NCBI GenBank assembly: GCA_021794425.1
Contig: JAJYQV010000037.1
Span: 1-42,533 of the forward strand
DNA: 42,533 nt
Direction: 5' to 3'
From: a bacterium
GTDB lineage: Bacteria > Patescibacteriota > Minisyncoccia > Phycocordibacterales > Phycocordibacteraceae
Part shown: in pieces, positions 201 to 39,945 of the stretch
Layout of the letters: every line of letters begins with the position of its first letter
How positions within the stretch are numbered: position 1 is the first letter of the stretch
Position numbers and translations under genes: made by a program
Notes under the pieces: model-generated
The model's input: the letters and a program-made list of their open reading frames with translations, nothing else
What the model was told of the DNA's origin: nothing
Databases searched by the model: none

Positions 201-521
201 TTAGGAAAAGCGGAACCAGGTCTGGCTCTCGGGGTTCACGCTGACAAACTCGGTATTAAGCCATTCAAAGGCTTGATGCTTCGGGCCATTCAGTGTGCTG
301 TCCTGGCTTGCGATCGTATTCGACTCAACCATGAGATCCTTCCCGGCCATGTGTGCGGCCTGCGACTGAAGCATGCCTGCGTAGAACGCCAGAGCTTTCT
401 GCCCGCCGTCTGCGCCCTTCACATAGCCCCAACGGATATAGCCCAGATCCCGGCCATCGAAGGTCTGGGTCAGATTGAAGTTGGCATCTTCCAGGGCGAT
501 GCTGAGTTCGGAGTCATCCAT
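201..521 (-). CDS. Hypothetical 106-aa protein, last gene of the S24/TM/TIR operon
   Basis: ORF 201..602 trimmed to the internal ATG (MDDSELSIAL...), 44 nt downstream of the TIR gene stop. No recognisable motif. Confidence 0.4.
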   Translation of the reverse strand: MDDSELSIALEDANFNLTQTFDGRDLGYIRWGYVKGADGGQKALAFYAGMLQSQAAHMAGKDLMVESNTIASQDSTLNGPKHQAFEWLNTEFVSVNPESQTWFRFS

Positions 522-565
522 ATGCGTATTGTATCTAGAATGAGACAAATGAGACACACTCCGCC

Positions 566-1045
566 CTACTTTCCACGAGCCCTCGCTGCTTCCTCGACCC
601 ACTTCCCAAGATTGTCTCGACCGTTGTCATTAACCCAGTCATAAATCTTCACGTAACTGGACAGCCAAGTACCATCGTTCAGCTTGATCCCATCGAAAGG
701 ACTTGCGCCCCAGTTATCGGTCGCCGAACGCTGGTCTTTCATGTTGTGGATGCGTACCCCGACAAGGCCGTTGCCGCGATTCCAGCTTTCGCGGATTTCG
801 TAGTCCACCCATGGACGAGTCGAGGTCTCCGCGCCAATCAGGACTACAGTAACCGAGGTATGACCGAGTTGATCCTTGATCCAGTTCTTGATCGCCTCAT
901 CGCCCTTGCGCTTGATTTCTTCCCACGCGACCGAGTCGATAACACCATACTCGTCTGCATCTGCGAGCAAATCGCTGTTGCGGACTTGTCCCGCACGCCA
1001 TGCGTCGCGCTCATAATGGAAGCTGAAAAATACTTTCCGTGCCAT
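566..1045 (-). CDS. TIR-like domain protein (ThsB / DUF1863 MTH538-like)
   Basis: 159 aa. The N-terminal KVFFSFHYERDAWRAGQVRN signature and the VVLIGAETSTRPWVDYEI segment are typical of the bacterial TIR-like (ThsB-type) fold family. Confidence 0.7.
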   Translation of the reverse strand: MARKVFFSFHYERDAWRAGQVRNSDLLADADEYGVIDSVAWEEIKRKGDEAIKNWIKDQLGHTSVTVVLIGAETSTRPWVDYEIRESWNRGNGLVGVRIHNMKDQRSATDNWGASPFDGIKLNDGTWLSSYVKIYDWVNDNGRDNLGKWVEEAARARGK

Positions 1046-1049
1046 AAGT

Positions 1050-1457
1050 TTAGGTGTTTAGGATAATAAGGAGCACAAGAACGTGAACCGCGAAAAGGCC
1101 GCCGTAAAAGAGGCGCATTGTGTCGGAGAATGCACAGGTATACCACGCGATTTTTGCACGATGAGACTTCGCGTCCATCGAGAAGTCGGCTTCCCCTTTG
1201 TGCTCAATTGCGTGTTCATAAAGCCTTATGTACGCGCGTTCCTGACCGAGGTAGTAGCTATCTAGGAGCCAAAAGAACGTGAGTACTGAAAGCGACACGA
1301 CAATATAAAGCCAGCTCGTCTCTTTGAACGAGAGCGCGAGCAGGGCGCTCACCAATGTCACAGCCCATCCCTTAAGGAGGAAAGAATTGCTCGCCATCCG
1401 ATTGATGGTGTTCTGAATGAATTCCAGGTGCTTTAGCTTTGAGTCGGTGGTGGCCAT
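1050..1457 (-). CDS. Small membrane protein with three predicted TM helices (possible SLATT-like effector)
   Basis: 135 aa. Hydrophobic stretches are FLLKGWAVTLVSALLALSF, WLYIVVSLSVLTFFWLL and LFYGGLFAVHVLVLLIIL. It lies 4 nt upstream of the TIR gene and 2 nt downstream of the S24 repressor gene. Confidence 0.6.
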   Translation of the reverse strand: MATTDSKLKHLEFIQNTINRMASNSFLLKGWAVTLVSALLALSFKETSWLYIVVSLSVLTFFWLLDSYYLGQERAYIRLYEHAIEHKGEADFSMDAKSHRAKIAWYTCAFSDTMRLFYGGLFAVHVLVLLIILNT

Positions 1458-1459
1458 AA

Positions 1460-2128
1460 TTATTTCGGCGTCGGCTTCTTCACCACGCTGATGACCTTGC
1501 CGCTTATCGTGAAGTCGTCGTCCTCATGCAGATAGATCGGCTCGTAGTCGTACGAGGAGTCGGCCTTGAGCACGACTTGTTCATTCGCGTCATCGCGAAT
1601 GAAACGCTTAATGGTCGCCTTATTGTCGATGATCGCTACAATGATGTCGTTATCCTTCGGCTCGGCGATTTTCGAGTCGACGATGACATAGTCGCCGTCC
1701 TCAATCTTGCGGCCGTCGATGTCGGCGCGATTCATCGAAGAACCATCGGCCTTAATCGCGTAGATACCGTCGGGCGAGCGTACTCCTGCAAGCTTGCTCG
1801 AGACGCGGAGAAATCCTTGATAGTTCGGTTCCGCAAAGATGGTCGCTGGGCCGCAATTCGCTGTGCCAATAATTGGGATGCGGAGGAGCGTCTTCGCCTT
1901 GTCCATGAGTCCTTTCGCCCATCCGGGGTTCTCCGCCCCTGCCTTGAGGACGCCACGCGGTCGGTCAATAAGAAGGAATCCCTTCTTCTGGAGCTGCATC
2001 AAATGATGCTTGATTTTCTGAGGTGAGGCATCAGTCGCGTCGATTTCCTGTGCCATCTCCCTCAGACTCATTTCGCCAAGGTTTTTCCTACGTGAAAGGG
2101 CGAGAAGTTGTTCTTGAATTGGGTGCAT
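1460..2128 (-). CDS. LexA/CI-type transcriptional repressor with S24 peptidase domain
   Basis: 222 aa. It has an N-terminal winged-helix LexA-like region, a cleavage-site-like AG, a catalytic Ser context (ADGSSM) and a Lys context (ATIKRF). It is the first gene of a 4-gene minus-strand operon. Confidence 0.8.
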   Translation of the reverse strand: MHPIQEQLLALSRRKNLGEMSLREMAQEIDATDASPQKIKHHLMQLQKKGFLLIDRPRGVLKAGAENPGWAKGLMDKAKTLLRIPIIGTANCGPATIFAEPNYQGFLRVSSKLAGVRSPDGIYAIKADGSSMNRADIDGRKIEDGDYVIVDSKIAEPKDNDIIVAIIDNKATIKRFIRDDANEQVVLKADSSYDYEPIYLHEDDDFTISGKVISVVKKPTPK

Positions 2129-2247
2129 TACATGATGTATACCATGGAATACCTAATGTCCGCAAGTCCATAAAACTTGACGGCTGTGGAGAGCAGGATT
2201 ACCCTATAGGAAGGTCGACCATTACCCGACCCTAACCCTTCCCCCGT

Positions 2248-2451
2248 ATGCCCGTACCAAAAGGAACCCGCAGTCGCAATGAAGATGGCCGTTGGCGCGA
2301 AGAACGCTCGGACGCCCTCGCGAAGAACCTTCGCAAGGACTATCCCGAGTTCAATCACGTGAACGGCAATACGAAGCTCGGTACCCTCAAGGAGAAATTC
2401 GACACCCCCTCCCTCGACGGCGTGCTCAAGGCACTTCGCAAAGAGCAATGA
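2248..2451 (+). CDS. Hypothetical small basic protein (67 aa)
   Basis: ORF with GC3-rich codon usage, divergent from the repressor gene. Its stop overlaps the next start (ATGA). Confidence 0.4.
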   Translation: MPVPKGTRSRNEDGRWREERSDALAKNLRKDYPEFNHVNGNTKLGTLKEKFDTPSLDGVLKALRKEQ

Positions 2452-2699
2452 TACGCGCCGATCAGTTCGTAGATGTGGGCGGCTTGATCTACTGCTTCTG
2501 CGACACGCCAATTGCGCGGCGAACGACGCGGCAAGAATTTGAACTCATCAAATTCCATCGCGGTCAGCCGGTGAAGACGCGGGTCGAGTACGGTGACCAA
2601 GCCAAACTCACGTGCGAGCAGTGCGGTTTCGGAGCGATCTTTCACAGCATCAAGGAATCGATAGGAGTGAGCGACGCCCTTAGCGTCTCTCTCGCCTAG
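2448..2699 (+). CDS. Hypothetical 83-aa protein with Cys pairs (CFC ... CEQC), possibly a zinc ribbon
   Basis: Internal ATG of ORF 2292..2699, forming an ATGA overlap with the upstream ORF. Followed by a strong terminator hairpin. Confidence 0.4.
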   Translation: MIRADQFVDVGGLIYCFCDTPIARRTTRQEFELIKFHRGQPVKTRVEYGDQAKLTCEQCGFGAIFHSIKESIGVSDALSVSLA

Positions 2700-2720: not shown

Positions 2721-2778
2721 AACGCCCGAACAAGCGTTTGTGCCATCGGCACGAGCGTTTGTTCGGGCGTTTTCGTTT
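2721..2778 (+). terminator. Rho-independent terminator-like hairpin
   Basis: AACGCCCGAACAA (2721-2733) pairs with TTGTTCGGGCGTT (2759-2771). There is an inner GTGCC/GGCAC stem, followed by TTTTCGTTT. Confidence 0.6.
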
Positions 2779-6325: not shown

Positions 6326-6601
6326 ATGAAATATATGGATGAAGAAAGTAAAAATCGCGTCATTCGCCGACTCAAGCTGCTCGAAGGGCAGGTTCGCGGT
6401 CTCCAAAAACTGGTGGAGAACGATACGTACTGTATCGATGTCATCACGCAAACCTCGGCGGTGAAGCAGGGGCTGTCCAATGTCGAAGATATGCTCCTTG
6501 AAAACCATCTGGGCCACTGCGTACATCGCCAGATGCACTCCGGTCAGACCAAGAAAGCGAAGGAGGAAATTATCAAGGTATATAAGCTCAAGAGAAAATA
6601 A
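6326..6601 (+). CDS. csoR: CsoR/RcnR-family copper-sensing repressor
   Basis: 91 aa. The RLKLLEGQVRGLQKLVENDTYCIDVITQTSAV...HLGHC pattern (DUF156) includes the Cys/His/Cys ligand set. Confidence 0.85.
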   Translation: MKYMDEESKNRVIRRLKLLEGQVRGLQKLVENDTYCIDVITQTSAVKQGLSNVEDMLLENHLGHCVHRQMHSGQTKKAKEEIIKVYKLKRK

Positions 6602-6604
6602 TAT

Positions 6605-8908
6605 ATGGCAGAAAATATATACAAAGTAAAAGGAATGCACTGCGCGAGCTGCGTATCCCTCATTCAGAATAAGGTTGGCAAGATTCCCGGCGTTGAAAAT
6701 GTCTCAGTCGGCCTTTCGACAGAAAAGGCAAAGGTTGTGTTCAAGGATGCACCTGTCGCGCTTAATACCTTGAATTCCGCCATCTCCCCATTCGGGTACT
6801 CGTTTGAAGATACCGGCAAGACCGCCGCTCAAATGGGCATGTCGGAGATGGATCACGCACGCATGGATCATAGCCAGAGCGGAGAGAAGAACATGGCTCT
6901 CGAAATGAAGTTCATTCTCCCGATGGTTGTATTTTCTTTCGCCATGATGCTATGGGATGTATTGAGTCAAAATGGCATCGTCCCTGCGATGCCGGAAAAT
7001 GCGTACGAAGTATCCCATCATCTCATGCCGATATTCGCTTCCTTCGTTCTCTTCGGCATTGGTCGGAGATATATCAAGGCGACGTGGGTCTTCCTTAAGA
7101 CCGGGATCGCCAATATGGATACGCTCGTCGGTATCTCGACAATCGTCGCCTTTATATACTCCTTCGCAGTTACCGCATTTGAAAAACCTCTCTCCGGCCT
7201 CTTGGATGTCAGCTCCAATTTTTATGACGTAGTAATAATCGTCATCGGCCTTATCGCATTTGGCCAGTTCCTTGAAGCCAGGGCAAAAAGAAAGACTAAC
7301 GAGGCTCTCCAGAAACTCGCCGAGCTTACCAGCAAATCCGCGCTCGTCGAACGTGACGGCAAGGAGATGGAAATCCCCATCGAAAAAGTGGAAATCGGCG
7401 ATGTGGTTATTATCAAACCGAATGAGCGCGTGCCAATCGACGGCCGCGTGGTAAATGGCAACAGCAGTATCGACGAGTCGAACCTGACCGGTGAATCGGT
7501 GCCGGTGGATAAAGCCACCGGCGACATGGTATTTGCTGGTACACAGAATTTCCAAGGACTCATCAAAATCAAGGTAGAAAAAGACAGCAAGGATACGGCT
7601 CTCGCGCATATCATAAAGATCGTTGAGAACGCACAGAACTCCAAAGCTCCTATTGAAAGAATTGCAGATAAGATATCCGGTGTATTCGTGTATGTCGTTA
7701 TCGTGCTTGCAGTCTTTACCTTCGCCTCGTGGCTCATATTCGCACCGGGCACATTCGGCCTGACCAAAGCACTTGCTCTCGCTATTTCCTCAACGATGGC
7801 GGTACTCGTCATCGCGTGCCCCTGCTCACTAGGCCTTGCTACCCCGACGGCAATCATTACCGGAGTCGGGACCGGCGCACGTCGAGGCATCCTCATCAAG
7901 AACGCCGAGAGTCTCGAGAAACTCGCAAAAGTGAATGCCATCGTATTCGACAAAACTGGTACGCTTACCGAAAACAAATTGTCGATTGAGGGAATCTTCT
8001 GCGAAGATAAGAATCACGTCTGTGATGCGGAAGACAAGGAATTCAAGCGATCCATTGCATATTCCATGACCAAATCATCGAAGCATCCGGTGTCGGAAAG
8101 TGTTGCCGTTTGGCTTCGGGACTCAAGGGCAGAAGCAGTACGAGTCGAGAAAATCGAAGAGGTGCCAGGCAAGGGCGTCACTGCTGAATTCAAGGGAGAG
8201 AAGTATTACCTCGGCTCCATCGGATACATCTCCGAAGTCCTTGCTCGAAAGCCGGAGAAGGTCAGGGAGAATTTCGATATTGGTCGCTTCGAAAGCGGGC
8301 GCGAACTGTATCTCGCTAACTCGAAACAAGTACTCTCGCTGATCAAGATCCACGATACAATCAAAGCAACGGCGTCACAGGAGGTGGCAAAGCTCAGGAA
8401 GCTCGGTTTGAAAATCGTCATGGCGACCGGCGACAACAAGAAAATCGGAGAAGCCGTAGCCAAGCAGCTCGGCATCGACGAAGTGTTTGCCGAGGTAAAG
8501 CCAGAAGACAAGCTCAGAATCGTCAAAGACTTGCAGGGCAAAGGATTGAAGGTGGCGATGATCGGTGACGGGGTGAACGACTCGCCCGCACTCGCACAGG
8601 CAGACGTCGCAATCTCAATGAGCGATGGATCGGATATCGCCATCGAAAGCTCGGATATCGTGCTTCTGAATGGCGATATTGGGAAGGTCGCGGAGGCGGT
8701 GAATCTTGCGAAGAAAACGAATCGGACGGTCTGGCAGAATCTCATCTGGTCATTCGGCTACAATTCGATTGGTATTCCGGTTGCAGCGGGAATTCTCGTA
8801 CCGTTCTGGGGCTGGACGTTGAGTCCTGCCATTGCCGGAGCGATCATGGCATTCGAAAGCGTGACGGTCGTTATGAATTCGCTTCGTCTTAAGAATGCAA
8901 AACTATAA
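6605..8908 (+). CDS. copA: Copper-translocating P1B-type ATPase
   Basis: 767 aa with HMA motif GMHCASCV, TM CPC motif (ACPCSLGLATP), DKTGTLT and GDGVNDSPAL. Confidence 0.92.
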   Translation: MAENIYKVKGMHCASCVSLIQNKVGKIPGVENVSVGLSTEKAKVVFKDAPVALNTLNSAISPFGYSFEDTGKTAAQMGMSEMDHARMDHSQSGEKNMALEMKFILPMVVFSFAMMLWDVLSQNGIVPAMPENAYEVSHHLMPIFASFVLFGIGRRYIKATWVFLKTGIANMDTLVGISTIVAFIYSFAVTAFEKPLSGLLDVSSNFYDVVIIVIGLIAFGQFLEARAKRKTNEALQKLAELTSKSALVERDGKEMEIPIEKVEIGDVVIIKPNERVPIDGRVVNGNSSIDESNLTGESVPVDKATGDMVFAGTQNFQGLIKIKVEKDSKDTALAHIIKIVENAQNSKAPIERIADKISGVFVYVVIVLAVFTFASWLIFAPGTFGLTKALALAISSTMAVLVIACPCSLGLATPTAIITGVGTGARRGILIKNAESLEKLAKVNAIVFDKTGTLTENKLSIEGIFCEDKNHVCDAEDKEFKRSIAYSMTKSSKHPVSESVAVWLRDSRAEAVRVEKIEEVPGKGVTAEFKGEKYYLGSIGYISEVLARKPEKVRENFDIGRFESGRELYLANSKQVLSLIKIHDTIKATASQEVAKLRKLGLKIVMATGDNKKIGEAVAKQLGIDEVFAEVKPEDKLRIVKDLQGKGLKVAMIGDGVNDSPALAQADVAISMSDGSDIAIESSDIVLLNGDIGKVAEAVNLAKKTNRTVWQNLIWSFGYNSIGIPVAAGILVPFWGWTLSPAIAGAIMAFESVTVVMNSLRLKNAKL

Positions 8909-8913
8909 ATCAT

Positions 8914-9813
8914 ATGTCACACAATCACGCGCACCCTTCAAATTACAACACGGCCTTTGTTATAGGCTTGGTTCTGAACATTGCCTTTGTCGCTATCGAA
9001 CTTTGGTTCGGCTACATCTCTCATTCGCTCGCCCTTACCTCAGACGCGGTGCATAACCTGACCGACGTGTTTGGCTTGCTGATCGCCTGGACGGGCATCT
9101 GGTTTGAGACCCGGACACCGAGCAAAAAGCACACGTACGGTTACGGTAGAGGATCTATTCTGACGTCGCTGTTTAATGCGATTCTGATATTCGTAGCAGC
9201 AGGAGGTATTTTTGTAGAAGCGCTCCATCGCATCAATATCCCAGCCAGTGTCATGGGGAGCACGGTTATGTGGGTTGCTGCGGTCGGTATTGTCATAAAC
9301 GGCGTCACAGCCTTCTTATTCATGAGAGGGCGTAAGAGTGATATCAACATTCGTGGCGCATTCGTGCACATGGCCGCCGATGCCGGGGTATCTCTCGGCG
9401 TGGTCTTTGCCGGTCTTGCCATCACCCTTACGGGAATTGCTTGGATTGATCCTGTGGTAAGCATCATTATCGCCGGAGTAATTATCTTCACTACATGGTC
9501 ACTCATGAAAGAGTCCCTGAACCTCTCGTTCGACGCCGTTCCAGAGTCCATCGATCTGGACCAAGTAAAAAAATATCTTGAAGGTATTACAGGTGTTGTC
9601 GCGGTACACGATTTGCATATCTGGGCGATAAGCACGAAAGAGACTGGTCTGACCGCGCATCTTATTTATGAAGACATGCCCGTTCCGGATGAAGCTTTAC
9701 TTCAGGTGGCCGATGATTTGCGCGACAAATTTCAGATCGGTCATACCACCCTGCAGACCGAGAAAGATCGGACTGGTCGTTACTGCAAATTAGAGCCAGA
9801 CACAATCATTTAA
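8914..9813 (+). CDS. Cation diffusion facilitator family transporter (CzcD/ZitB-like)
   Basis: 299 aa with multiple TM helices, the metal-site motifs SDAVHNLTD and HMAADAGVS, and a C-terminal cytoplasmic domain. Confidence 0.85.
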   Translation: MSHNHAHPSNYNTAFVIGLVLNIAFVAIELWFGYISHSLALTSDAVHNLTDVFGLLIAWTGIWFETRTPSKKHTYGYGRGSILTSLFNAILIFVAAGGIFVEALHRINIPASVMGSTVMWVAAVGIVINGVTAFLFMRGRKSDINIRGAFVHMAADAGVSLGVVFAGLAITLTGIAWIDPVVSIIIAGVIIFTTWSLMKESLNLSFDAVPESIDLDQVKKYLEGITGVVAVHDLHIWAISTKETGLTAHLIYEDMPVPDEALLQVADDLRDKFQIGHTTLQTEKDRTGRYCKLEPDTII

Positions 9814-9816
9814 TTT

Positions 9817-10830
9817 ATGAAATCACTCACATTCCACGTTTCCGGTACCCATTGCGCCGCATGCAAAATCTTCATCGAAGATATTCTGGGTGAGCAGGAT
9901 TTCATCAAGAAGTCCAACGTTGATCTCAAAAAAGAAACAGTCACCATCGAAACCGACAGCGACCAGAACCCCGAAGTGATGGCAGAGGAGCTGACAGAGA
10001 AGATCAGGAAGAACGGCTACACTCTCTCGGTAGGGAAAAAGGTAGACGAGAAAAAACAAGATGATGTCATTTGGAAAGCAATCCCAATAGGACTGGCATT
10101 TCTCATTCTTTTCTTCATCCTGCAAAAGTCCGGCATTTTGAATCTCGGCATCGGTGGCACGACGACTCCGGCCACGAGCTTCGTCATTGGACTCATCGCG
10201 TCGGCATCAAGCTGCCTTGCGGTGGTTGGCGGTCTGATCCTATCCCTCTCCGCGAAAGTGGCCCAGGATGAAAGTACCAAAACAAGCAAGAAACAATTCG
10301 TGCTCTTTCATGGCGGAAGACTGTTTGGGTTCGCTATTCTCGGTGGCGTGCTCGGCCTCGTCGGTCAGGCGATTGGTGTCAGTTTTACCTTCTCGGCGAT
10401 CCTCGGCCTCATAGCTTCGAGCGTCATGATATTACTCGGGCTTAACCTCGTAGGGGTTCTCAAGAAAAACAAAGTTGCTCTGCCGACCGGAATATTCGCC
10501 CACTTCAGAAAAGTCGAGCATTCGACCTTCGCCCCGATTTTTATCGGCATCGGCACATTCTTCCTGCCATGCGGCTTCACGCAAGCGATGCAGGTCGCTG
10601 CGCTCTCAAGCGGCTCATTCGTGTCTGGACTTCTCATCATGCTGTCGTTCGCACTCGGGACCCTTCCAATGCTTGCACTCTTGTCTTTCGGATCGGTGTC
10701 CTTTGCACATTCCAAACATGCGCCACTCTTCTTCAAATCTGCAGGCATCGTTGTGATCGGTCTCGGTATCTTCGCACTTCTTGCCGGTCTCGCGGGGCTG
10801 GGTGTCATCCGTCCTTTATTTAACATTTAA
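9817..10830 (+). CDS. HMA domain fused to a TauE/SafE- or DsbD_2-like multi-TM permease
   Basis: N-terminal SGTHCAACKIF heavy-metal-associated motif, followed by about six glycine-rich TM helices. Confidence 0.65.
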   Translation: MKSLTFHVSGTHCAACKIFIEDILGEQDFIKKSNVDLKKETVTIETDSDQNPEVMAEELTEKIRKNGYTLSVGKKVDEKKQDDVIWKAIPIGLAFLILFFILQKSGILNLGIGGTTTPATSFVIGLIASASSCLAVVGGLILSLSAKVAQDESTKTSKKQFVLFHGGRLFGFAILGGVLGLVGQAIGVSFTFSAILGLIASSVMILLGLNLVGVLKKNKVALPTGIFAHFRKVEHSTFAPIFIGIGTFFLPCGFTQAMQVAALSSGSFVSGLLIMLSFALGTLPMLALLSFGSVSFAHSKHAPLFFKSAGIVVIGLGIFALLAGLAGLGVIRPLFNI

Positions 10831-10850
10831 TCTTTTAGTAAAATTACTTT

Positions 10851-11249
10851 ATGAACAAAACCGCTTCGATCATCATCACGCTCGCTCTTGTTGCCGGTCT
10901 CGGCATTGTCTTCCTTGGAGGATCGAAGGACGGTGCTCCGACCGCTTCAACGGGAACGGCTCAGAACGTCGAAATACGGGATGGTGTTCAGTACGTCACT
11001 ATCAATGCGAAAGCTGGATACTCACCAAAAGTTTCCAGTGCGAAAGCTGGTATCCCAACGAAGCTCATTGTAAAAACTAACGGCACGTATGACTGCTCGG
11101 CTTCTCTCGTGATTCGATCCATCGGCTATCAGAAAATACTTCCTCAAACCGGAGAGGACACAATCGACATTGGTACTCCAGTGGCCGGACAACCCCTGCA
11201 GGGGGTATGCGGTATGGGGATGTATAACTTTCTCGTAAATTTTAGTTGA
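10851..11249 (+). CDS. Cupredoxin-like domain protein with N-terminal anchor
   Basis: 132 aa with an N-terminal TM segment and a beta-rich domain ending ...QGVCGMGMYNFLV (Cys/Met ligand-like). Last gene of the metal operon. Confidence 0.5.
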   Translation: MNKTASIIITLALVAGLGIVFLGGSKDGAPTASTGTAQNVEIRDGVQYVTINAKAGYSPKVSSAKAGIPTKLIVKTNGTYDCSASLVIRSIGYQKILPQTGEDTIDIGTPVAGQPLQGVCGMGMYNFLVNFS

Positions 11250-11329
11250 GGTAGCAAGAGTTTATCAACTCCTCGGGCTCGTAGGACGCTCTGGACTCCT
11301 TAGAGGGGTTGCGTCATTCCTTGTACTGT

Positions 11330-12649
11330 ATGAACACAATACAAGCGCCGGTGGGGTTTCCGGCCAAGCAAATACAAGCCCCTGTGAAGGTTAGATACTG
11401 CCTCTATGCCCGTAAGAGCACCGAGAGCGAGGAACGGCAGGTGCTCTCCATTGAGAGCCAAGTAAAGGAAATGCTCCAGCTCGCGGAACGAGAAGGACTT
11501 GAGGTAGTCGCCATGAAGCGAGAGAGCCACTCGGCTAAGGAGACCGGCCAGCGACCCATCTTCAACGAGATAATTGAAGAGATCCAGAGCGGCAAGTACA
11601 ACGGCATCCTCACCTGGGCGGCAGACCGCATCAGCCGAAATGCGGGCGACCTGGGTCGCGTCGTCGATCTCATGGATGCAGGACACTTGCAAGAGATTCG
11701 GACATTCAGCCAAGGCTTCAGGAATAACCCGAACGAGAAGTTCCTCCTGACGATTCTCGGCGGGCAAGCCAAGCTTGAGAACGACAATCGAGGCATCAAT
11801 GTGAAGCGCGGACTACGAACACGCGTCGAGATGGGTCTGTGGCCGACCACACCGCCGACTGGGTACATTACCCAACACGACATGCTAAAGAAGTGTCAGG
11901 TCATCATCGACCCCGAGCGCGGCGAGATAGTGAAGAAGATGTTCGAGAAGATGGCGTACGAGAAATGGAGCGGACGGCGCATCCACCACTGGCTCAAGTT
12001 CGACCTAAACTTCAAGACGGTCGGCAAGAAAAACCTCGCACTCTCAAACATCTTCCGCACCCTCCAGAACCCCTTCTACTACGGCGTCTTCGAGTATCCG
12101 AAGAAAAGCGGCAACTGGTATCAGGGCAAGCACGAGCCGCTTATCTCGAAGGAACTGTTCGACCAAGTACAGCTTCAAATGAAGCGCGACAACATCGTGC
12201 GGCAGGGGCACGAGTTCGCCTTCACCAAGCTGATGACCTGCGGTAAGTGTGGATCAGGCATAAGCGCGGAAGAGAAGTACAAGCCCCTCAAGGACGGCAC
12301 GACTAAGCGTTACATCTACTACGGATGCGGACGCTCGAAGAACAAGACGTGTCACGCCAAGTATCTGCAGGAGGAGGCACTAGTAGAGCAGCTGATTTCG
12401 CTCCTTGATCAGATTGACTTCAATACACTTGGCATCGAGCAGAAGTTCGAGGACGAGCTAAAGCGCTTCAACAAGTTCCAGCGCGGAGTGCTGGGTATCG
12501 CAAATAAAGGCGCGACTCACGCCGATATTGACCTCAAGACCTACGCGAAGTACACGCTCAAGGAAGGCACGAATGAGGAGCGACGGGAACTGATGGGGTG
12601 CTTTAAGTCGAAGCTCAAGATTACGGAAGGGATCGTGACCATCGAATAG
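11330..12649 (+). CDS. Large serine recombinase (resolvase/invertase N-domain + recombinase domain + zinc ribbon)
   Basis: YARKSTESEERQVLSIESQ contains the catalytic Ser context. A recombinase domain follows, with a CGKCGS...CGRSKNKTC Cys cluster. The start was taken at the ATG; the ORF track extends to a TTG at 11309. Confidence 0.85.
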   Translation: MNTIQAPVGFPAKQIQAPVKVRYCLYARKSTESEERQVLSIESQVKEMLQLAEREGLEVVAMKRESHSAKETGQRPIFNEIIEEIQSGKYNGILTWAADRISRNAGDLGRVVDLMDAGHLQEIRTFSQGFRNNPNEKFLLTILGGQAKLENDNRGINVKRGLRTRVEMGLWPTTPPTGYITQHDMLKKCQVIIDPERGEIVKKMFEKMAYEKWSGRRIHHWLKFDLNFKTVGKKNLALSNIFRTLQNPFYYGVFEYPKKSGNWYQGKHEPLISKELFDQVQLQMKRDNIVRQGHEFAFTKLMTCGKCGSGISAEEKYKPLKDGTTKRYIYYGCGRSKNKTCHAKYLQEEALVEQLISLLDQIDFNTLGIEQKFEDELKRFNKFQRGVLGIANKGATHADIDLKTYAKYTLKEGTNEERRELMGCFKSKLKITEGIVTIE

Positions 12650-12698: not shown

Positions 12699-12747
12699 GC
12701 AACTTTAAACAAGGCTCTCGGGTCACACCGATACTAAAGTCTTCGGG

Positions 12748-12834
12748 CGGAGGCGGAGAGATTCGAACTCTCGAGACCCTTTCGAGCCTGCCGCCTTTCC
12801 AAGGCGGTGGAATAAACCGCTATCCGACGCCTCC
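12748..12834 (-). tRNA. tRNA-Ser(GGA)
   Basis: Hand-folded. Acceptor GGAGGCG/CGCCTCC, anticodon loop TTGGAAA, long variable arm, T-loop GTTCGAATC, discriminator G. CCA is not encoded. Confidence 0.85.
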
Positions 12835-12956
12835 AAGCGTACTGTCCTGTTATAGCAGAAAAACGCTCGGTTTTCACGCCTTCGTGCCGAGGAGCGCGGC
12901 GACGTGGGCTTTGACCGTCGGCCGCACTTTCGCTCGAAGACTCGCTCAGCGCTGCA

Positions 12957-17731: not shown

Positions 17732-17807
17732 TGGTGGGCGTGCCTGGACTCGAACCAGGAACCGCAGAGGTATAAGCTCTGTGCTCTAACCATTGAGCTA
17801 CACGCCC
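17732..17807 (-). tRNA. tRNA-Ile(UAU), CCA encoded
   Basis: GGGCGTG TA GCTC AATGGTTA GAGC A CAGAG CTTATAC CTCTG CGGTT CCTGG TTCGAGT CCAGG CACGCCC A CCA. Confidence 0.85.
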
Positions 17808-34718: not shown

Positions 34719-34767
34719 GCAAAGGCTTCGTGGAGGAGGGACTGCGTGAGGGCGGCGAGGGCGGCTT
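34719..34767. repeat. Direct repeat copy 2 (fossil coding fragment ...AALAALTQSLLHEAFAG)
   Basis: Lies immediately 3' of the res stop codon and is out of frame with res. Confidence 0.85.
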
Positions 34768-37379
34768 TAAATTCGAAACTGCTCGAAGACTTCCTCAAAC
34801 GCTTCGTTGTCATCGTGCTTGAAGAACGGCAAACCGATGACTTTGTACTGTTCGTTCTCGAAAAGCGTTTCCACCTTTCCTTCTGCCGCAATTTCCTTCA
34901 AGAAGTCTTCTTTCCACTGGTCTTGCTTCACGAGGTGTGCGCCTTTGGGCTCGATGAAGAGCTGATGCACAATCGCCTGCTTGCTTCCCTTCTCGCGCAA
35001 GAAAAGCACGAAGTCCGGCTCGACACGCGCGCCGTCAGAGAAACGATAAATCGGAAAGAGTCGCTCGTTGCGCAGGAGTCGCACGTCTTCATATCGCTGT
35101 TCCAAATCCGCCATGGCGTCGTGTATGAAATGCACGAGCTCTTTTTCCTCTCGCGTGCCGTAGTTTTCATCGTAGACATACCAGTCTTTCTTTGAGAGGT
35201 CGAGCTGAAGCGAAGACGTGCGCGCCGCGCGCATCGGCACGCCGAATTCTTGGTCGCCTCCTTCGCTCACGGCGACCTTGATATGCTTATCCCGTACGAC
35301 TTTGTGAATCGGCCTGGGCAAAAACTCTTTCGTGCCCTCGTACTCGCCGGTATTGTTGGTCACGAGCTGTTCAATCTGTCGCAGCGCCTCTAGGGCGGCC
35401 TGAAGCACCTCGCTGCGAGTCACCGCTACCACGTCTTGAAGCTCGCCGCGCACGGCTATCGTCGCTCCGCCGAGGTATGCCTCGGCCGTAATGAACTCCT
35501 GCACAGAAGCCAGATGCGGGAAGAAGCGCGACAAAGAATCAAATCGGTAAAACGGCAGACGGCTGAGCGCTTCACGCCAGAGTGCCGCGTCAATCGGCGT
35601 AGTGTCCCGGCTCGTTTTCTCGCGCACCACCTGAGCTCCCGCTTCTTTGAAAACGGCAACATCGCTCCCGCCGCCGCGTTGCAAGTCAAAGACGAATCGC
35701 TGGGGAATACCCGGCACGTCTTTGAGCCCCTTGATGTGCTTCCGGCCGGTCGAGCGTTTCTCGTTCAGGAACACCTGCCCCGTCTTCCAAAATGCCGTTT
35801 TCTTGATCCCTTCTTTCACTTGTATGTCGTACTCGCGCAGGTCCTCGGGCTTCGCCATCGCGCCCGTCTTCACGAGCGCATTCTTGATCTCGGCGATGTA
35901 CCGCGAATCGTATTTCGAGTGATAGTGCAGCTGCTCCAGGATCCGCAGCTCGTTCCCGGTGTCCTCGTCATACTTGCGCACGAAGCGGTCCTCGTCATCT
36001 GCCGAGAGCGAAAACGGCCAGTAGCGCGCACCGCGCCCGACGAGCTGCGCCTCGGCCATCGTCGCCGGCGAGATCGTGCGCCCGCCCGACTGCCGCGTCT
36101 CGTAGAGGCGCACGATGTCGAAGAGATTGAGCACATCCCACCCCTCGTTCAGCTTGTCGACCGCAAATATGGCGCGGACGCGATTATGCTTCTCCTCAAG
36201 AGAATTCACCTCGAGCTGTTTCTGCTCCGAGTCGTCTTTCGAGTTGACCGACCGGCATTTCTCCGGATCGAAGTCGTCTTTGATCTCGCGCGCCAGGTCA
36301 GACAGCGTGATGTGTTTCTCGTCGAAAAATGCGAACGCGTCTGCGAGCGCCGGCTGGTCGTCAGACGCCTTCGGCCGTAGCGCTTTTATCGTAGACGCTT
36401 TGAGGGTGCGCACGGCCTCATGGAATGCCGCCTCGAAATCCTTTGAATCCTGAATGGACTTCGATTTGAAAAGTACCACCGGCTTCAGCTGTAGGCCATG
36501 GTGCTCGGCCACTTTCCGGCGATACTGCGAAAGCACGACGGCACTGAGCGCCCGATCCATCGGGTCCAAGTTCCGCCCGGCGATCTCTATCTCTTTCGAG
36601 AATCCATCGGAGCGGAATTGGGCGAGATCGTAGCGGTAGATGAGCTTGTCTTCGTACTTCTTGGCAATGTCTGCATTCTGCGTATCGATGGTCGCCGTAA
36701 ATTCAAGCATCACGTTGCGCGGATTCTTGCGGAGCACGCGAGTAATCGTCCCCTCCCAGGTCTGCCGCTCTATCTCTTCGTCTACCGAGGGCTTCCCGGC
36801 CCGTGTGAGCGCGTTCACGTGATGCGCTTCGTCCGAGAGGAACACAACGTCGCGGTCGTCAAAATCTTCCTCGGTGAGCACGTTTTCCCGCGGTGCGTTC
36901 ATGCGCGCATGAAGCCCCTGGATGGTCGTGAAGAGGATGTTGATGCCGTCCGGATCGGTCGAGCTGAAGTTCTCTACCGCGCGCACTGCCACTTCCCGGC
37001 CGCTCACCTCGATCTTATCTGCGAAGAGGTATTTGCTCGACTGCGGGTTGAGGAAGTTGTCGCGGGTCTTCTTGATGATGTTCGTGCTGTTTACGAAAAA
37101 CACGAAATTGCGATATCCGAGTTTATAGAGGTGCACTATCGCCCCCGCCATCACGAGCGTCTTGCCCGAGCCGGTCGCCATGTTGAAGAGCAGATGCACG
37201 GGTGTCTGCCGGCCATGGTACTCGCCCAAGTAAAACTCCAGCCGCCCGAGTGCCTCCTTCTGATACTCACGCAGCACCCGCCCCGATGCCAAGCTTGCCG
37301 CCACGCCCTCCGGCACTCGGCTCTTGAAATAACCGTCTCCGAGCGCCCGCGTCAATGAGTCAAAATCTTGGTAGAGCAT
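34767..37379 (-). CDS. res: Type III restriction enzyme Res subunit (SF2 helicase + PD-(D/E)xK nuclease)
   Basis: MATGSGKT Walker A, SDEAHH, and a C-terminal EPDFVLF...IEPKG nuclease-like motif. The start was trimmed to MLYQDFDSL, 1 nt after the rhuM stop. Confidence 0.85.
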   Translation of the reverse strand: MLYQDFDSLTRALGDGYFKSRVPEGVAASLASGRVLREYQKEALGRLEFYLGEYHGRQTPVHLLFNMATGSGKTLVMAGAIVHLYKLGYRNFVFFVNSTNIIKKTRDNFLNPQSSKYLFADKIEVSGREVAVRAVENFSSTDPDGINILFTTIQGLHARMNAPRENVLTEEDFDDRDVVFLSDEAHHVNALTRAGKPSVDEEIERQTWEGTITRVLRKNPRNVMLEFTATIDTQNADIAKKYEDKLIYRYDLAQFRSDGFSKEIEIAGRNLDPMDRALSAVVLSQYRRKVAEHHGLQLKPVVLFKSKSIQDSKDFEAAFHEAVRTLKASTIKALRPKASDDQPALADAFAFFDEKHITLSDLAREIKDDFDPEKCRSVNSKDDSEQKQLEVNSLEEKHNRVRAIFAVDKLNEGWDVLNLFDIVRLYETRQSGGRTISPATMAEAQLVGRGARYWPFSLSADDEDRFVRKYDEDTGNELRILEQLHYHSKYDSRYIAEIKNALVKTGAMAKPEDLREYDIQVKEGIKKTAFWKTGQVFLNEKRSTGRKHIKGLKDVPGIPQRFVFDLQRGGGSDVAVFKEAGAQVVREKTSRDTTPIDAALWREALSRLPFYRFDSLSRFFPHLASVQEFITAEAYLGGATIAVRGELQDVVAVTRSEVLQAALEALRQIEQLVTNNTGEYEGTKEFLPRPIHKVVRDKHIKVAVSEGGDQEFGVPMRAARTSSLQLDLSKKDWYVYDENYGTREEKELVHFIHDAMADLEQRYEDVRLLRNERLFPIYRFSDGARVEPDFVLFLREKGSKQAIVHQLFIEPKGAHLVKQDQWKEDFLKEIAAEGKVETLFENEQYKVIGLPFFKHDDNEAFEEVFEQFRI

Positions 37380-37380
37380 G

Positions 37381-38421
37381 TTACTTCTTCTTGTGCCGTG
37401 TCGGCTGCGGCGCTTGCGCTTCTGACAATCCTTCCGCCTTTTCGATAAACTTATCAAAGTCCGAGACGATACGCTGAGTCTTGTCGAACGCAGCGTACTC
37501 CTCGTGCGCCTTGCGCTCCGCCTGGTCGTGAGAGACCGACCCCTTACCATCGAGTACCCGGTACTCGTTGAACGCGAGGAATTTATTTACCGACTCTGCA
37601 AGCGCTTCCATCGTGAAGACCGTCTGGCCCTCGATGAGCCGCTCGATGTAGTCGAAGTAGCCGGACACGGTGCGCTCGAGCCGCTTGATGTCCGCCTCGG
37701 GCAGGTAGTTCTTGGCGATAGCCGCGTCGGATTTGAGAATCCGGCCATCCGGCGCGTGCTTCCAGGTAGCGAGTCCCATGTTGGCCTTACTCCGGTCGGC
37801 ACCCGCATAAATGAGCTCAGCGGCTGTGCGACCCGAGATGGCATAGTGGAACTTGTTCTGCACCATCGCGTAGAAGTTTTTCGTGAGATCTGATGCCGGA
37901 TCGTAGTCGATACTGCACTCGGCAAAGATATCCGTGATCTGCTGATAGATGCGCCGCTCGCTCGCGCGGATGGAACGCACGCGCTCAAGAAGCTCGCGGA
38001 AGTAGTCCTGTCCGAGGCGGGTGCCGTTCTTCAAGAGTTCGTCGTCGAGCGCGAAACCCTTGATGATGTAGTCGCGCAGCACCGTCGTGGCCCACTTACG
38101 GAAGTGGGTCGCCTGGATGGAGTTGACGCGGTATCCCACCGAGATGATGGCGTCGAGATTGTAAAATTGCGTCTCGTATGACTTGCCGTCTGCGGCAGTT
38201 GTTCGAATTTTTCGAATAACTGAATCTTCTTGTAACTCGCCATTCTTTATGGTTTCTTTGAGATGGTAGTTGACCGTGTTGACCTCCACTCCGAACACCT
38301 CCGCCATCCGCTTCTGCGTGAGCCAGACCGTCTCGTCTTGCACCAGCACCTCGACCGCCACCGCCCCCTCGGGCGACTTATAGAGCACGAACGTCTTTTC
38401 TTTTGCCGGCGTTTTTTTCAT
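37381..38421 (-). CDS. rhuM: RhuM-family (Virulence_RhuM) protein
   Basis: ETVWLTQKRMAEVFGVEVNTVNYHLKE...YNLDAIISVGYRVNSIQATHFRKWATTVLRDYIIKGFALDDELLK is the canonical RhuM N-terminal block. Confidence 0.8.
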   Translation of the reverse strand: MKKTPAKEKTFVLYKSPEGAVAVEVLVQDETVWLTQKRMAEVFGVEVNTVNYHLKETIKNGELQEDSVIRKIRTTAADGKSYETQFYNLDAIISVGYRVNSIQATHFRKWATTVLRDYIIKGFALDDELLKNGTRLGQDYFRELLERVRSIRASERRIYQQITDIFAECSIDYDPASDLTKNFYAMVQNKFHYAISGRTAAELIYAGADRSKANMGLATWKHAPDGRILKSDAAIAKNYLPEADIKRLERTVSGYFDYIERLIEGQTVFTMEALAESVNKFLAFNEYRVLDGKGSVSHDQAERKAHEEYAAFDKTQRIVSDFDKFIEKAEGLSEAQAPQPTRHKKK

Positions 38422-38882: not shown

Positions 38883-39123
38883 AGCAAGTTTGTTATATCA
38901 TTCCTCTTCGGCATACACCCGCGCACAACTTTAGCCGACTTATGCACACCCCGCACGCGGCAATTGATGCCGTGCCACGATTGTGCTACTCTCTGGGTAG
39001 GAGCATGCAATAATAGCTTTTTGAGCGCTTTGGTGTTCCCTCGGAGTATCCGAGGCATGGATTGAGTAATCAAGCCATAAAACCGAAGGATGTCGCCCAA
39101 GGAGACGCTGCTTCTACCAAAAG

Positions 39124-39143
39124 AGATCTGCGCACGCAGGTCT
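39124..39143. terminator. Bidirectional terminator after DUF3800
   Basis: AGATCTGCG-ca-CGCAGGTCT hairpin flanked by AAAAG and TTTTTTG. Confidence 0.6.
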
Positions 39144-39174
39144 TTTTTGCTTTGTGGATGCGACACGAGAGCGT

Positions 39175-39825: not shown

Positions 39826-39827
39826 AG

Positions 39828-39941: not shown

Positions 39942-39945
39942 AGAT

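What the first reader, a model, noticed from the sequence alone, without database searches (positions are those of the whole stretch)
201..2128. S24/LexA-type repressor heads an operon with a 3-TM protein, a ThsB-like TIR protein and a 106-aa unknown: a Thoeris-like module with no ThsA
Four minus-strand ORFs are packed with gaps of 2, 4 and 44 nt, so they are almost certainly co-transcribed. The TIR-like protein carries the FFSFHYERD... signature of ThsB-type TIRs.

No SIR2/SLOG or Macro (ThsA-type) partner is present. Instead it is paired with a 135-aa three-helix membrane protein, a plausible pore or membrane-disrupting effector that may be SLATT-like, and with an unassignable 106-aa protein.

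Placing such a module directly behind an autocleavable S24 repressor suggests derepression by DNA damage or RecA*, which would be an unusual control logic for a TIR defence or abortive-infection module. The operon sits on a mobile element.
Basis: partly seen in the sequence, partly recalled or inferred. Interest (0 to 1): 0.7.

Follow-up and report, generated by a model that had tools for sequence, protein, structure and literature searches.

The report
Type V Thoeris behind LexA-like repressor
The membrane-protein/TIR gene pair is a type V Thoeris anti-phage system, a kind described and tested in 2025, and here it rides as cargo behind the self-cleaving LexA-like repressor of a mobile island, while the 106-aa gene is not part of it.

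Summary
Four minus-strand ORFs sit at 201-2128 with gaps of 2, 4 and 44 nt.

The 135-aa 3-TM protein is 43% identical (E 2e-34, full length) to ThsF. ThsF is the effector of the type V Thoeris system of B. thuringiensis DAR 81934, which was verified experimentally (Yirmiya et al., bioRxiv Dec 2025). The TIR protein is a ThsB with the catalytic Glu (E83). The pair also matches PADLOC candidate PDC-M50 A and B. ThsF homologues have a TIR gene next to them in 73 of 77 informative loci. The "Thoeris without ThsA" reading is therefore right, but the system is already known, and it is not SLATT.

The 106-aa ORF is a real but rare protein. It is absent from all 80 ThsF loci and occurs elsewhere without Thoeris, so it belongs to the island backbone.

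The S24 protein is a full-length LexA-like repressor with C92-G93, S131 and K174. Its close orthologues almost never precede ThsF. They head variable cargo (CBASS, Shedu, another TIR system) or sit beside recA. They share a leaderless promoter placed back-to-back with a strong divergent promoter, a lambda cI-rexAB-like layout.

Induction by DNA damage is possible but unproven. The one mildly new point is that LexA-like genes recur next to ThsF (16 of 80 loci).

The parts
1460..2128 (-). LexA-like repressor: N-terminal winged helix plus C-terminal S24 self-cleaving peptidase; first gene of the operon
   Evidence: Pfam Peptidase_S24 8.6e-21 and LexA_DNA_bind 6.5e-05. NCBIfam lexA model 1.7e-22 over residues 21-218, but 80 bits is below the 110.95 cut-off. 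S131 and K174 align with the UmuD Ser/Lys dyad. C92-G93 lies at the LexA/UmuD cleavage position (position inferred). 97 full-length relatives at 42-84% identity were found in metagenomes.
1050..1457 (-). ThsF, the three-helix membrane effector of type V Thoeris
   Evidence: 43% identity, E 2e-34, full length, to the gene next to the verified ThsB of B. thuringiensis DAR 81934 (L095:3773-4198). hhalign probability 100%. PADLOC PDC-M50A 6e-43. phrog_19896 1e-35. Three hydrophobic helices. More than 2200 relatives with a strongly conserved N-terminal KHLEFIQxTINRMAxNSFLLKGW motif.
566..1045 (-). ThsB, the TIR-domain sensor and signal synthase of type V Thoeris
   Evidence: Pfam ThsB_TIR 8.3e-26. 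PADLOC ThsB 9e-66 and PDC-M50B 3.7e-62. phmmer 2e-73 to TIR 2709899069, listed as 'DUF2270 - Type V' in Table S1 of the preprint. E83 aligns with the YEI Glu of B. cereus ThsB (PDB 6LHY/9B7D), residue 85 by my count.
201..521 (-). 106-aa protein of unknown function; probably co-transcribed, but an island backbone gene and not a Thoeris component
   Evidence: No family hit. 0 of 80 ThsF loci carry a homologue. It is a rare family of about 100-aa proteins. Homologues lie directly beside a ParB-methylase gene with no Thoeris (L177-L180), or beside a Shedu-like gene and a serine recombinase (L181-L183). The AF2 model has pLDDT 76 and no fold match.
2129..2247 (.). Control region with back-to-back divergent promoters, including the conserved motif GTCAAGTTTTATGGA at 2167-2181 (-)
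   Evidence: The motif lies at -53/-54 from the start codon in 42 of 47 orthologue upstream regions. Read on the other strand it is the -35 (TTGACA) of a divergent promoter with a TATACT -10 in 32 of 38 distinct regions. A rightward promoter ends about 6 nt before the ATG in 28 of 38, which implies a leaderless mRNA. In the window the divergent promoter reads TTGACG-17-TACCCT. A palindrome (GTATnCCATGGnATAC on the minus strand; reported arms 2130-2159, 83% complementary) lies just upstream of the ATG.
2248..2699 (+). Two small divergent genes (67 aa, and an 83-aa protein with CxC...CxxC cysteines) that travel with the repressor module
   Evidence: Both are present with the module in two different flanking contexts (L083, L084). 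Homologues lie upstream of S24 orthologues in L099, L127, L135 and L159. No family hits.
213..228 (-). Terminator-like hairpin at the end of the operon
   Evidence: Consensus scan only. Weak evidence.

Best explanation
Genes 1050-1457 and 566-1045 are a type V Thoeris anti-phage system, thsF then thsB.

By homology with the tested system, the mechanism is as follows. ThsB (TIR, catalytic E83) detects infection and converts NAD+ into a cyclic ADP-ribose signal. That signal is 3'cADPR in the verified B. thuringiensis system and is not known for this ThsB clade. The 135-aa three-helix protein ThsF is predicted in the preprint to form a ring in the membrane with positively charged pockets between subunits. 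It binds the signal and damages the membrane, which stops the cell and the phage.

The pair is cargo in the immunity operon of an integrative island that lies next to tRNA-Ser. It sits directly behind a LexA-like self-cleaving repressor and is almost certainly co-transcribed with it, from a weak leaderless promoter. That promoter is back-to-back with a divergent promoter that drives the island's other genes. The system is therefore made whenever the repressor is made, that is, while the island is quiescent (the lambda cI-rexAB arrangement).

If the repressor also represses its own promoter, as LexA does, RecA-triggered cleavage would raise expression further.

Shown: homology, gene order, co-localisation, catalytic residues and promoter architecture. 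Inferred: the signal molecule, the oligomer, co-transcription, the operators and the direction of autoregulation.

The 106-aa gene is an island gene of unknown function.
For: - ThsF identity: (43% identity, E 2e-34, to the effector gene of the verified system; both hit PDC-M50A).
- Published function of type V. These cover defence in B. subtilis, infection-dependent 3'cADPR, toxicity of added 3'cADPR, inhibition by Tad1, three TM helices and an AF3 heptamer.
- ThsB.
- Co-localisation of ThsF with TIR genes of several Pfam types: 73 of 77 loci. It is also seen on plasmids, where matched hits include 40 vs 43 records in Klebsiella and 36 vs 36 in Escherichia.
- Operon packing.
- Island context: serine recombinase next to tRNA-Ser, and G+C rising from 0.52 to 0.61 at about 13 kb. 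The identical module occurs in two different flanks.
- The repressor is not dedicated to Thoeris: only 1 of 69 close orthologue loci has ThsF downstream. The others carry CBASS, Shedu, TIR+8xMP, unknown genes, or chromosomal neighbours including recA.
- Conserved leaderless promoter and divergent promoter.
Against: - Pfam DUF2270, the label the preprint gives ThsF, does not hit the window protein or its relatives significantly (one hit at E 0.058). No Pfam hit is on record for the verified ThsF either, so the label seems to come from a more sensitive method.
- This ThsB belongs to a different TIR clade from the two verified type V ThsB proteins. In addition, one verified type V system was not activated by 3'cADPR. 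The signal is therefore uncertain.
- Nothing here shows transcription, repressor binding or cleavage.
- The window's own rightward promoter is poor by consensus.
- LexA-like genes of at least three subfamilies lie next to ThsF in 16 of 80 loci. That is more than a pure hitch-hiking model predicts and hints at a real regulatory tie.
Confidence: 0.8

Rival explanations
1. The LexA-like protein is a dedicated damage-responsive switch for the toxic system. It represses its own operon tightly, and RecA bound to single-stranded DNA (from phage replication or DNA damage) triggers self-cleavage and induces thsF-thsB. It is analogous to CapH/CapP control of CBASS (recalled from my own knowledge, not checked here).
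For: - The cleavage site, Ser and Lys are intact.
- LexA-family repressors normally repress their own gene (established knowledge).
- A palindrome lies just upstream of the start codon, about where the -10 of a leaderless promoter would fall.
- LexA-like genes lie next to ThsF in 16 of 80 loci, from several subfamilies, with co-directional gaps as small as 4-39 nt.
- Close orthologues head other cell-killing systems with 3-9 nt gaps: CBASS in L097 and L152, Shedu in L122.
Against: - The repressor is inside the operon, so basal expression of the system tracks that of the repressor.
- The best-conserved cis element is the -35 of the divergent promoter, not an operator over the repressor's own promoter.
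- The verified type V systems work from their native promoters without such a regulator.
- There are no expression or cleavage data.
Confidence: 0.3
2. The S24 gene is simply the organism's own LexA, and thsF-thsB landed beside it by chance, with no functional link.
For: Orthologues at 60-65% identity sit divergent from recA, or near XerC/D-like recombinase genes, in what look like chromosomal contexts.
Against: - The gene lies inside the low-G+C island.
- It moves together with thsF-thsB in two different flanking contexts (L083, L084).
- The closest orthologue (84%, L097) lies in another element, with a gene I read by eye as ArdC-like upstream (not scanned) and CBASS behind it.
- The 2-nt gap argues for one transcript.
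Confidence: 0.07
3. The roles are reversed. The membrane protein senses infection or envelope stress, and the TIR protein is an NAD+-depleting effector rather than a signal synthase.
For: Some bacterial TIR proteins act as NADase effectors in other systems. The signal for this ThsB clade is unknown.
Against: - In the verified type V system the TIR alone makes 3'cADPR on infection. Added 3'cADPR is toxic only to cells carrying the system, and the Tad1 sponge blocks defence.
- ThsF pairs with TIRs of many unrelated clades. That fits a common receptor-effector fed by interchangeable signal producers.
Confidence: 0.05

Closest known systems
Type V Thoeris (ThsB + ThsF), Yirmiya et al., bioRxiv 10.64898/2025.12.03.692087; verified systems from B. 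thuringiensis DAR 81934 and Bacillus sp. 1NLA3E
   Same: Both are two-gene TIR plus 3-TM-effector operons. The window effector is 43% identical over its full length to the verified ThsF. The window TIR is 2e-73 to a TIR listed as type V in their Table S1.
   Different: - The gene order here is thsF then thsB. In B. thuringiensis it is thsB then thsF.
- The ThsB belongs to a different TIR clade, nearer to type I ThsB of B. cereus.
- A LexA-like gene heads the operon here. The preprint does not mention LexA or S24.
PADLOC candidate system PDC-M50 (PADLOC-DB v2.0.0)
   Same: Both genes hit its models: PDC-M50A 6e-43 and PDC-M50B 3.7e-62. The verified ThsF hits PDC-M50A too.
   Different: PDC-M50 was a guilt-by-association candidate with no named function. 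No paper in the searched library mentions it.
Lambda immunity region (PRM-cI-rexA-rexB, divergent from PR-cro)
   Same: Both have an S24 self-cleaving repressor translated from a leaderless mRNA, a back-to-back divergent promoter, and a two-gene abortive-infection system with a membrane component co-transcribed downstream. The window side rests. The lambda side is established knowledge.
   Different: There is no sequence relationship. The repressor here has a LexA-type winged helix rather than the lambda CI domain. The island has no recognisable virion genes in the 12.7 kb seen. The operators and the sign of autoregulation are unknown.
Regulators that travel with many defence systems (CapW/BrxR WYL proteins; CapH/CapP of CBASS)
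   Same: In each case a conserved regulator gene sits at the head of variable defence cargo. Orthologues of this S24 protein precede CBASS, Shedu and TIR systems.
   Different: The protein family is different (LexA-like S24). I found no paper describing such a role. PMC9122601 describes the WYL family (listed; only title and abstract seen).

Membership tests
Type V Thoeris | Effector homologous to ThsF of a verified system | tested here: met
   BLASTP gives 43% identity, E 2e-34, over residues 5-130, to L095:3773-4198. That gene lies directly downstream of the 100%-identical verified ThsB. hhalign probability 100%.
Type V Thoeris | Effector has three membrane-spanning helices | tested here: met
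   Hydropathy peaks at 25-44, 47-70 and 113-135, in both the window protein and the B. thuringiensis ThsF. The AF2 model has long helices at 3-46, 49-85 and 112-134, mean pLDDT 83.5.
Type V Thoeris | TIR-domain gene adjacent in the same operon | tested here: met
   4-nt gap on the same strand. The same holds in 73 of 77 informative homologous loci.
Type V Thoeris | TIR catalytic glutamate | tested here: met
   E83 in WVDYEI aligns with the Glu of WVRYEI in B. cereus ThsB (6LHY/9B7D), residue 85 by my count. That E85 is the catalytic residue comes from my own knowledge.
Type V Thoeris | Effector annotated as Pfam DUF2270 (PF10028) | tested here: inconclusive
   There is no significant PF10028 hit for the window protein or for 8 relatives (best E 0.058). 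No Pfam hit is on record for the verified ThsF itself. The label is therefore not reproducible with HMMER and is not a usable criterion.
Type V Thoeris | Infection-dependent cyclic ADPR signal, signal-triggered toxicity, phage protection | not testable with these tools
   This needs experiments. It is published only for the Bacillus systems.
Type V Thoeris | Ring-shaped homo-oligomer with positively charged pockets | not tested
   No multimer prediction is available. The monomer has no PDB fold match (best E 1.1).
Type I Thoeris | SIR2-SLOG ThsA effector | tested here: not met
   No SIR2 or SLOG domain appears in any of the 14 island proteins scanned between 201 and 12649.
Type II Thoeris | Effector with TM helices plus a Macro domain | tested here: not met
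   The protein is only 135 aa and has no Macro hit.
Type VII Thoeris / SLATT effectors | SLATT domain | tested here: not met
   No SLATT family hit at E up to 1. The only weak Pfam hit is DUF3278 (24.2 bits, below the 26.6 cut-off).
PADLOC PDC-M50 | Adjacent genes matching models A and B | tested here: met
   PDC-M50A 6e-43; PDC-M50B 3.7e-62.
LexA/S24 self-cleaving repressors | S24 domain with Ser-Lys dyad | tested here: met
   Peptidase_S24 8.6e-21. S131 (GSSM) and K174 (IKRF) align with the GDSM and VKKL motifs of UmuD.
LexA/S24 self-cleaving repressors | N-terminal DNA-binding winged helix | tested here: inconclusive
   LexA_DNA_bind 23.1 bits against a 23.7 cut-off. The lexA model aligns over residues 21-218. 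The N-terminus is highly conserved among orthologues.
LexA/S24 self-cleaving repressors | Ala-Gly or Cys-Gly cleavage site before the S24 domain | tested here: inconclusive
   ANC92-G93P is in the expected place. It was assigned by eye against LexA VAAGEP and UmuD C24-G25 (my own knowledge) and is not covered by the printed alignments.
LexA/S24 self-cleaving repressors | Bona fide LexA (NCBIfam equivalog cut-off) | tested here: not met
   TIGR00498 gives 80 bits against a cut-off of 110.95. I therefore call it LexA-like, not LexA.
LexA/S24 self-cleaving repressors | RecA*-stimulated self-cleavage and operator binding | not testable with these tools
   Requires biochemistry.

The most novel reading that the evidence does not exclude
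LexA-like S24 repressors form a portable, damage-responsive 'head gene' for cell-killing defence cassettes. One orthologous repressor, with its compact divergent-promoter switch, is reused in front of type V Thoeris, CBASS, Shedu and TIR+8xMP systems. Unrelated LexA-like genes, including LexA-methyltransferase fusions in candidate-phyla-radiation (CPR) bacteria, have independently become neighbours of ThsF. If these repressors really gate expression through RecA-triggered cleavage, this would be a third general class of defence-system regulator, beside the WYL (CapW/BrxR) and CapH/CapP classes. It would tie abortive-infection systems directly to the SOS signal.
Probability: 0.3. Interest if true: 0.55.

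Novelty: new member of a known kind. Interest (0 to 1): 0.3.

Why it matters
The main value of this check is negative. A module that looked like an undescribed "Thoeris without ThsA" is a type V Thoeris system, published and tested in 2025 and already catalogued by PADLOC as PDC-M50. It should not be pursued as a new defence system.

Three smaller points may be useful.
- This copy extends type V Thoeris to a ThsB clade and gene order different from the verified ones, so the signal molecule may differ.
- The effector family cannot be found with the Pfam model named in the preprint (DUF2270). Annotation pipelines that rely on Pfam will miss it.
- LexA-like repressor genes recur at the head of Thoeris, CBASS and Shedu cassettes. 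This suggests a testable link between the SOS signal and expression of abortive-infection systems, which I did not find described.

Tried and rejected
- SLATT or another known membrane-effector family for the 135-aa protein: no Pfam or NCBIfam hit beyond a sub-threshold DUF3278 match. Foldseek against the PDB gave nothing (best E 1.1).
- Pfam DUF2270 as a membership criterion: it fails even for close relatives of the verified ThsF, so I used direct homology to the verified gene instead.
- Table S3 of the preprint, to confirm type V calls in named genomes: the stored file is cut and did not contain the species I searched for.
- The 106-aa protein as a Thoeris accessory or an anti-Thoeris sponge: no family hit, no co-occurrence with ThsF, and no fold match in the PDB or in viral structures.
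- DNA-level relatives among phages and plasmids: none, or only short TIR matches.
- Close relatives of the S24 protein in viral contigs: none. ThsF does occur on 17 viral contigs, but only 1 of the 17 (L196) has a LexA-like neighbour.
- The conserved TGTCAAG motif as a LexA operator: it is better explained as the -35 of a divergent promoter. I could not define operators. The motif occurs only once in the window.
- Host taxonomy: cluster look-up of three host proteins returned no names.
- Literature on LexA/S24 control of defence systems: two searches found nothing relevant.
Full report
**1. Observation**

The four minus-strand ORFs are present exactly as described.
- S24/LexA-like: 1460-2128, 222 aa.
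- Hydrophobic protein: 1050-1457, 135 aa.
- TIR protein: 566-1045, 159 aa, beginning MARKVFFSFHYERD.
- Small ORF: 201-521, 106 aa from its ATG.

The intergenic gaps are TT (2 nt), ACTT (4 nt) and 44 nt. A consensus scan finds no promoter-like or terminator-like site between the genes. It finds a terminator-like hairpin at 213-228 on the minus strand, at the end of the last ORF.

The start of the S24 gene at MHPIQE (222 aa) is supported by orthologues that conserve the protein from that residue. An automatic caller chose M20 instead. The ATG start of the 106-aa ORF is the one its homologues share.

**2. Identity of the TM-TIR pair**

Family searches gave the following.
- The TIR protein matches Pfam ThsB_TIR (8.3e-26) and PADLOC ThsB (9e-66).
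- The 135-aa protein matches PADLOC candidate PDC-M50A (6e-43), and the TIR protein also matches PDC-M50B (3.7e-62).
- The 135-aa protein has no significant Pfam or NCBIfam family.

A full-text search led to the preprint of Yirmiya et al. (bioRxiv 10.64898/2025.12.03.692087, December 2025). It defines Thoeris types V-XI. Type V is ThsB plus ThsF, an effector with three membrane-spanning helices that the authors label DUF2270.

Two Bacillus type V systems protected B. subtilis from phages. For the B. thuringiensis DAR 81934 system the preprint reports the following.
- The TIR protein made 3'cADPR on infection.
- Added 3'cADPR was toxic to cells that carried the system.
- The Tad1 sponge blocked defence.
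- AlphaFold3 modelled ThsF as a heptameric ring with positively charged pockets between protomers.

Table S1 of the preprint lists a TIR (2709899069) labelled "DUF2270 - Type V". It is 2e-73 to the window TIR.

To test the effector directly, I searched with the TIR sequence of the verified B. thuringiensis system and recovered the identical protein (P0121). I then fetched its locus (L095). The gene immediately downstream (L095:3773-4198, 141 aa) is the verified ThsF.
- The window protein is 43% identical to it over residues 5-130 (E 2e-34).
- A profile of 34 window-protein relatives matches it with probability 100%.
- It hits the same PDC-M50A models.

Both proteins have three hydrophobic helices at equivalent positions. 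E83 of the window TIR aligns with the Glu of the YEI motif (residue 85 by my count) of B. cereus ThsB, PDB 6LHY/9B7D. This residue is known as catalytic from my own knowledge.

The pair is therefore a type V Thoeris system.

**3. Co-localisation**

The ThsF family is large and spans many phyla. There are more than 2200 relatives in the protein collection and 431 in one-genome-per-species contigs.

In the 80 loci fetched, a TIR-family gene lies beside the ThsF gene on the same strand in 73. Three of the remaining seven are cut by a contig end. The partner TIRs belong to several clades and Pfam models: ThsB_TIR, TIR_2 and CAP12-PCTIR_TIR. They include close relatives of both verified type V ThsB proteins.

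On plasmids, hits to ThsF and to the B. thuringiensis-type ThsB occur in matching numbers and side by side. ThsF also occurs on 17 IMG/VR viral contigs and has its own PHROG.

The Pfam model DUF2270 does not detect the family. Nor is any Pfam hit on record for the verified ThsF.

**4. The 106-aa ORF**

It encodes a real protein.
- It has 14 full-length relatives of about 100 aa among 1.84 billion representatives.
- The alignment has many invariant residues.
- The AF2 model has pLDDT 76.

None of the 80 ThsF loci contains a homologue. Its homologues occur in two other settings.
- In L177-L180 a 67%-identical copy lies directly divergent from a ParB-methyltransferase gene like the window's. No repressor, ThsF or ThsB lies between them.
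- In L181-L183 a 49%-identical copy lies between a Shedu-like (SduA_C) gene and a serine recombinase.

It has no family hit and no structural match. I conclude that it is a backbone gene of this kind of integrative element, flanking a slot where defence cargo is inserted. It is not a Thoeris component.

**5. The island**

Positions 1 to about 12.7 kb have lower G+C than the next 26 kb (0.48-0.55 against about 0.57-0.64). The stretch ends with a large serine recombinase (11309-12649) next to tRNA-Ser (12745-12835).

It carries the following genes.
- A ParB-N6/N4 methyltransferase.
- A small-terminase-like HTH protein.
- An HNH protein.
- A TM2-SHOCT protein.
- A heavy-metal efflux cluster.

The identical block [83-aa, 67-aa genes] <-> [S24, thsF, thsB, 106-aa gene] is found with two different sets of flanking genes (L083, L084). 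It therefore moves as a unit.

**6. The repressor**

The 222-aa protein matches Peptidase_S24 (8.6e-21). It matches the LexA model over almost its whole length, but below the equivalog cut-off. S131 and K174 align with the catalytic Ser and Lys of UmuD. ANC92-G93P occupies the place of the LexA Ala-Gly and UmuD Cys-Gly cleavage sites; this assignment was made by eye.

Ninety-seven metagenomic stretches encode full-length relatives at 42-84% identity. Among 69 fetched loci with room downstream, only one (L160) has ThsF after the repressor gene. The neighbours are otherwise very diverse: 220 clusters among 334 neighbouring ORFs.

Some loci look chromosomal, with recA divergent in six or seven and an XerC/D-like recombinase gene in nine.

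In others the repressor gene is followed within 3-9 nt by defence genes.
- L097 (84% identical repressor): a type III-like CBASS with cyclase, HORMA, TRIP13 and an endonuclease.
- L152: a SAVED-HNH effector plus a cyclase.
- L122: a Shedu nuclease.
- L127: a TIR gene plus an 8xMP membrane protein. Here the same ParB-methylase, terminase-like and 83-aa genes lie upstream as in the window.

The repressor is therefore not a dedicated Thoeris gene. It is the conserved head of a variable cargo slot.

**7. Control region**

In 42 of 47 orthologue upstream regions, including the window (2167-2181, minus strand), the sequence TGTCAAGTWTTAMGGA lies 53-54 nt before the start codon.

Read on the opposite strand, its invariant part is a TTGACA -35 hexamer. 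In 32 of 38 distinct regions a TATACT-like -10 follows it at 16-18 nt, which gives a near-consensus divergent promoter. In 28 of 38 there is also a promoter toward the repressor gene whose -10 ends about 6 nt before the ATG. That implies a leaderless mRNA.

The window has TTGACG-17-TACCCT for the divergent promoter, a poor match for the repressor-side promoter, and a palindrome just upstream of the start codon.

This is the geometry of the lambda PRM/PR region: back-to-back promoters, a leaderless cI message, and rexA-rexB co-transcribed behind cI (established knowledge).

The layout favours the view that thsF-thsB are expressed together with the repressor while the island is quiescent. It does not exclude LexA-style negative autoregulation, which would raise expression after RecA-triggered cleavage. 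I could not identify operators.

**8. A recurring neighbourhood**

Viewed from the ThsF side, 16 of 80 loci have a LexA-like gene next to the ThsF gene.
- Eight are co-directional and upstream, with gaps from -26 to 546 nt. They come from at least two subfamilies only distantly related to the window's repressor.
- Eight are divergent. Six of these are LexA-DNA methyltransferase fusion proteins in CPR (Patescibacteria) genomes.

I judge that this is far more than chance adjacency would give for a family with a few members per genome. It could still reflect a shared preference for mobile-element immunity regions. The type V preprint does not mention LexA or S24. Two literature searches found no description of LexA-like regulators of defence systems.

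**9. Verdict**

- The module is a Thoeris system whose effector is a small membrane protein.
- It is a known type (V; PDC-M50).
- It is not SLATT.
- It does not include the 106-aa protein.
- Its link to the S24 repressor is best read as cargo in a mobile element's immunity operon.

Novelty is low: a new member of a known kind. The residual interest lies in the recurrent LexA-like head genes of defence cassettes.

Noticed in passing
L012:4483-5904, L018:1070-2935, L025:934-2511, L028:1890-3530, L030:1478-3058, L040:4346-5941 (all minus strand in locus coordinates): Single ORFs of 473-621 aa in CPR (Saccharibacteria, Nomurabacteria, Paceibacteria) MAGs. By eye they fuse a LexA-like winged helix and S24 domain to a DNA methyltransferase; the C-terminal parts were not scanned against Pfam. 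Each lies divergent, 20-99 nt, from a ThsF gene. A self-cleaving repressor fused to a methylase is an odd architecture.
   Followed up: partly
L097:3968-7832; L152:4001-7683; L122:4001-6304; L127:4001-5595: Close orthologues (62-84% identity) of the window's S24 repressor are followed within 3-9 nt by other defence cassettes (in L122 and L152 a 69-81-aa ORF comes first). These are CBASS with HORMA/TRIP13, SAVED-HNH plus cyclase, Shedu, and a TIR gene plus an 8xMP membrane protein.
   Followed up: partly
window 2129-2247, and upstream regions of L097-L166: Conserved back-to-back promoter pair. A near-consensus divergent promoter (TTGACA-17-TATACT) faces away from a promoter that leaves the S24 mRNA leaderless.
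   Followed up: yes
window 2723-2769 (+): A 20-bp-stem hairpin followed by T-rich sequence lies just after the 83-aa gene. It overlaps the longest-ORF start of the ParB-methyltransferase gene. It may be a terminator or attenuator between the small divergent genes and the rest of the island.
   Followed up: no
window 34767-42469 (-): A second defence cluster lies at the right end of the window: PDC-S05 (37381-38421, E 4e-147), a Shedu SduA gene (39946-41112) and a type III methyltransferase (41099-42469). G+C drops to 0.42-0.46 after 40 kb. The 927-aa ORF at 34767-37550 was not examined.
   Followed up: partly
window 6326-11249 (+): Heavy-metal cargo on the same island: a CsoR-like metal repressor (91 aa), a P-type ATPase with an HMA domain, a cation-diffusion facilitator, an HMA-DsbD_2 protein and a cupredoxin-like protein.
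   Followed up: no
window 17732-17807 (-): A tRNA-Ile with anticodon TAT was called by ARAGORN. By my recollection this anticodon is uncommon in bacteria. Not examined further.
   Followed up: no
L046:5992-6411; L127:5008-5595: One ThsF relative gives a weak hit to Pfam 8xMP, the octameric membrane protein family (E 0.009). A true 8xMP protein (2.6e-43) follows a TIR gene in L127. ThsF and the preprint's '3TM' effectors may be distantly related small oligomeric membrane proteins.
   Followed up: no
L181:1492-3953 (also L182, L183): A homologue of the 106-aa protein sits in a four-gene row behind a Shedu-like SduA_C gene, together with two other small ORFs (105 and 127 aa), next to a serine recombinase. 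In L181 a retron/DGR-like RVT_1 plus bAvd region lies beyond the recombinase.
   Followed up: no
L001:3254-4258 (-) (Haladaptatus salinisoli plasmid NZ_CP085331.1): An archaeal (haloarchaeal) plasmid carries a thsB-thsF pair. The TIR gene is 70% identical at the DNA level to the window's over 262 nt, and a HIT-domain gene lies next door. Three haloarchaeal plasmids carry ThsF homologues (Haladaptatus, Halorussus, Halorhabdus); a thsB-thsF pair was confirmed only in Haladaptatus.
   Followed up: partly
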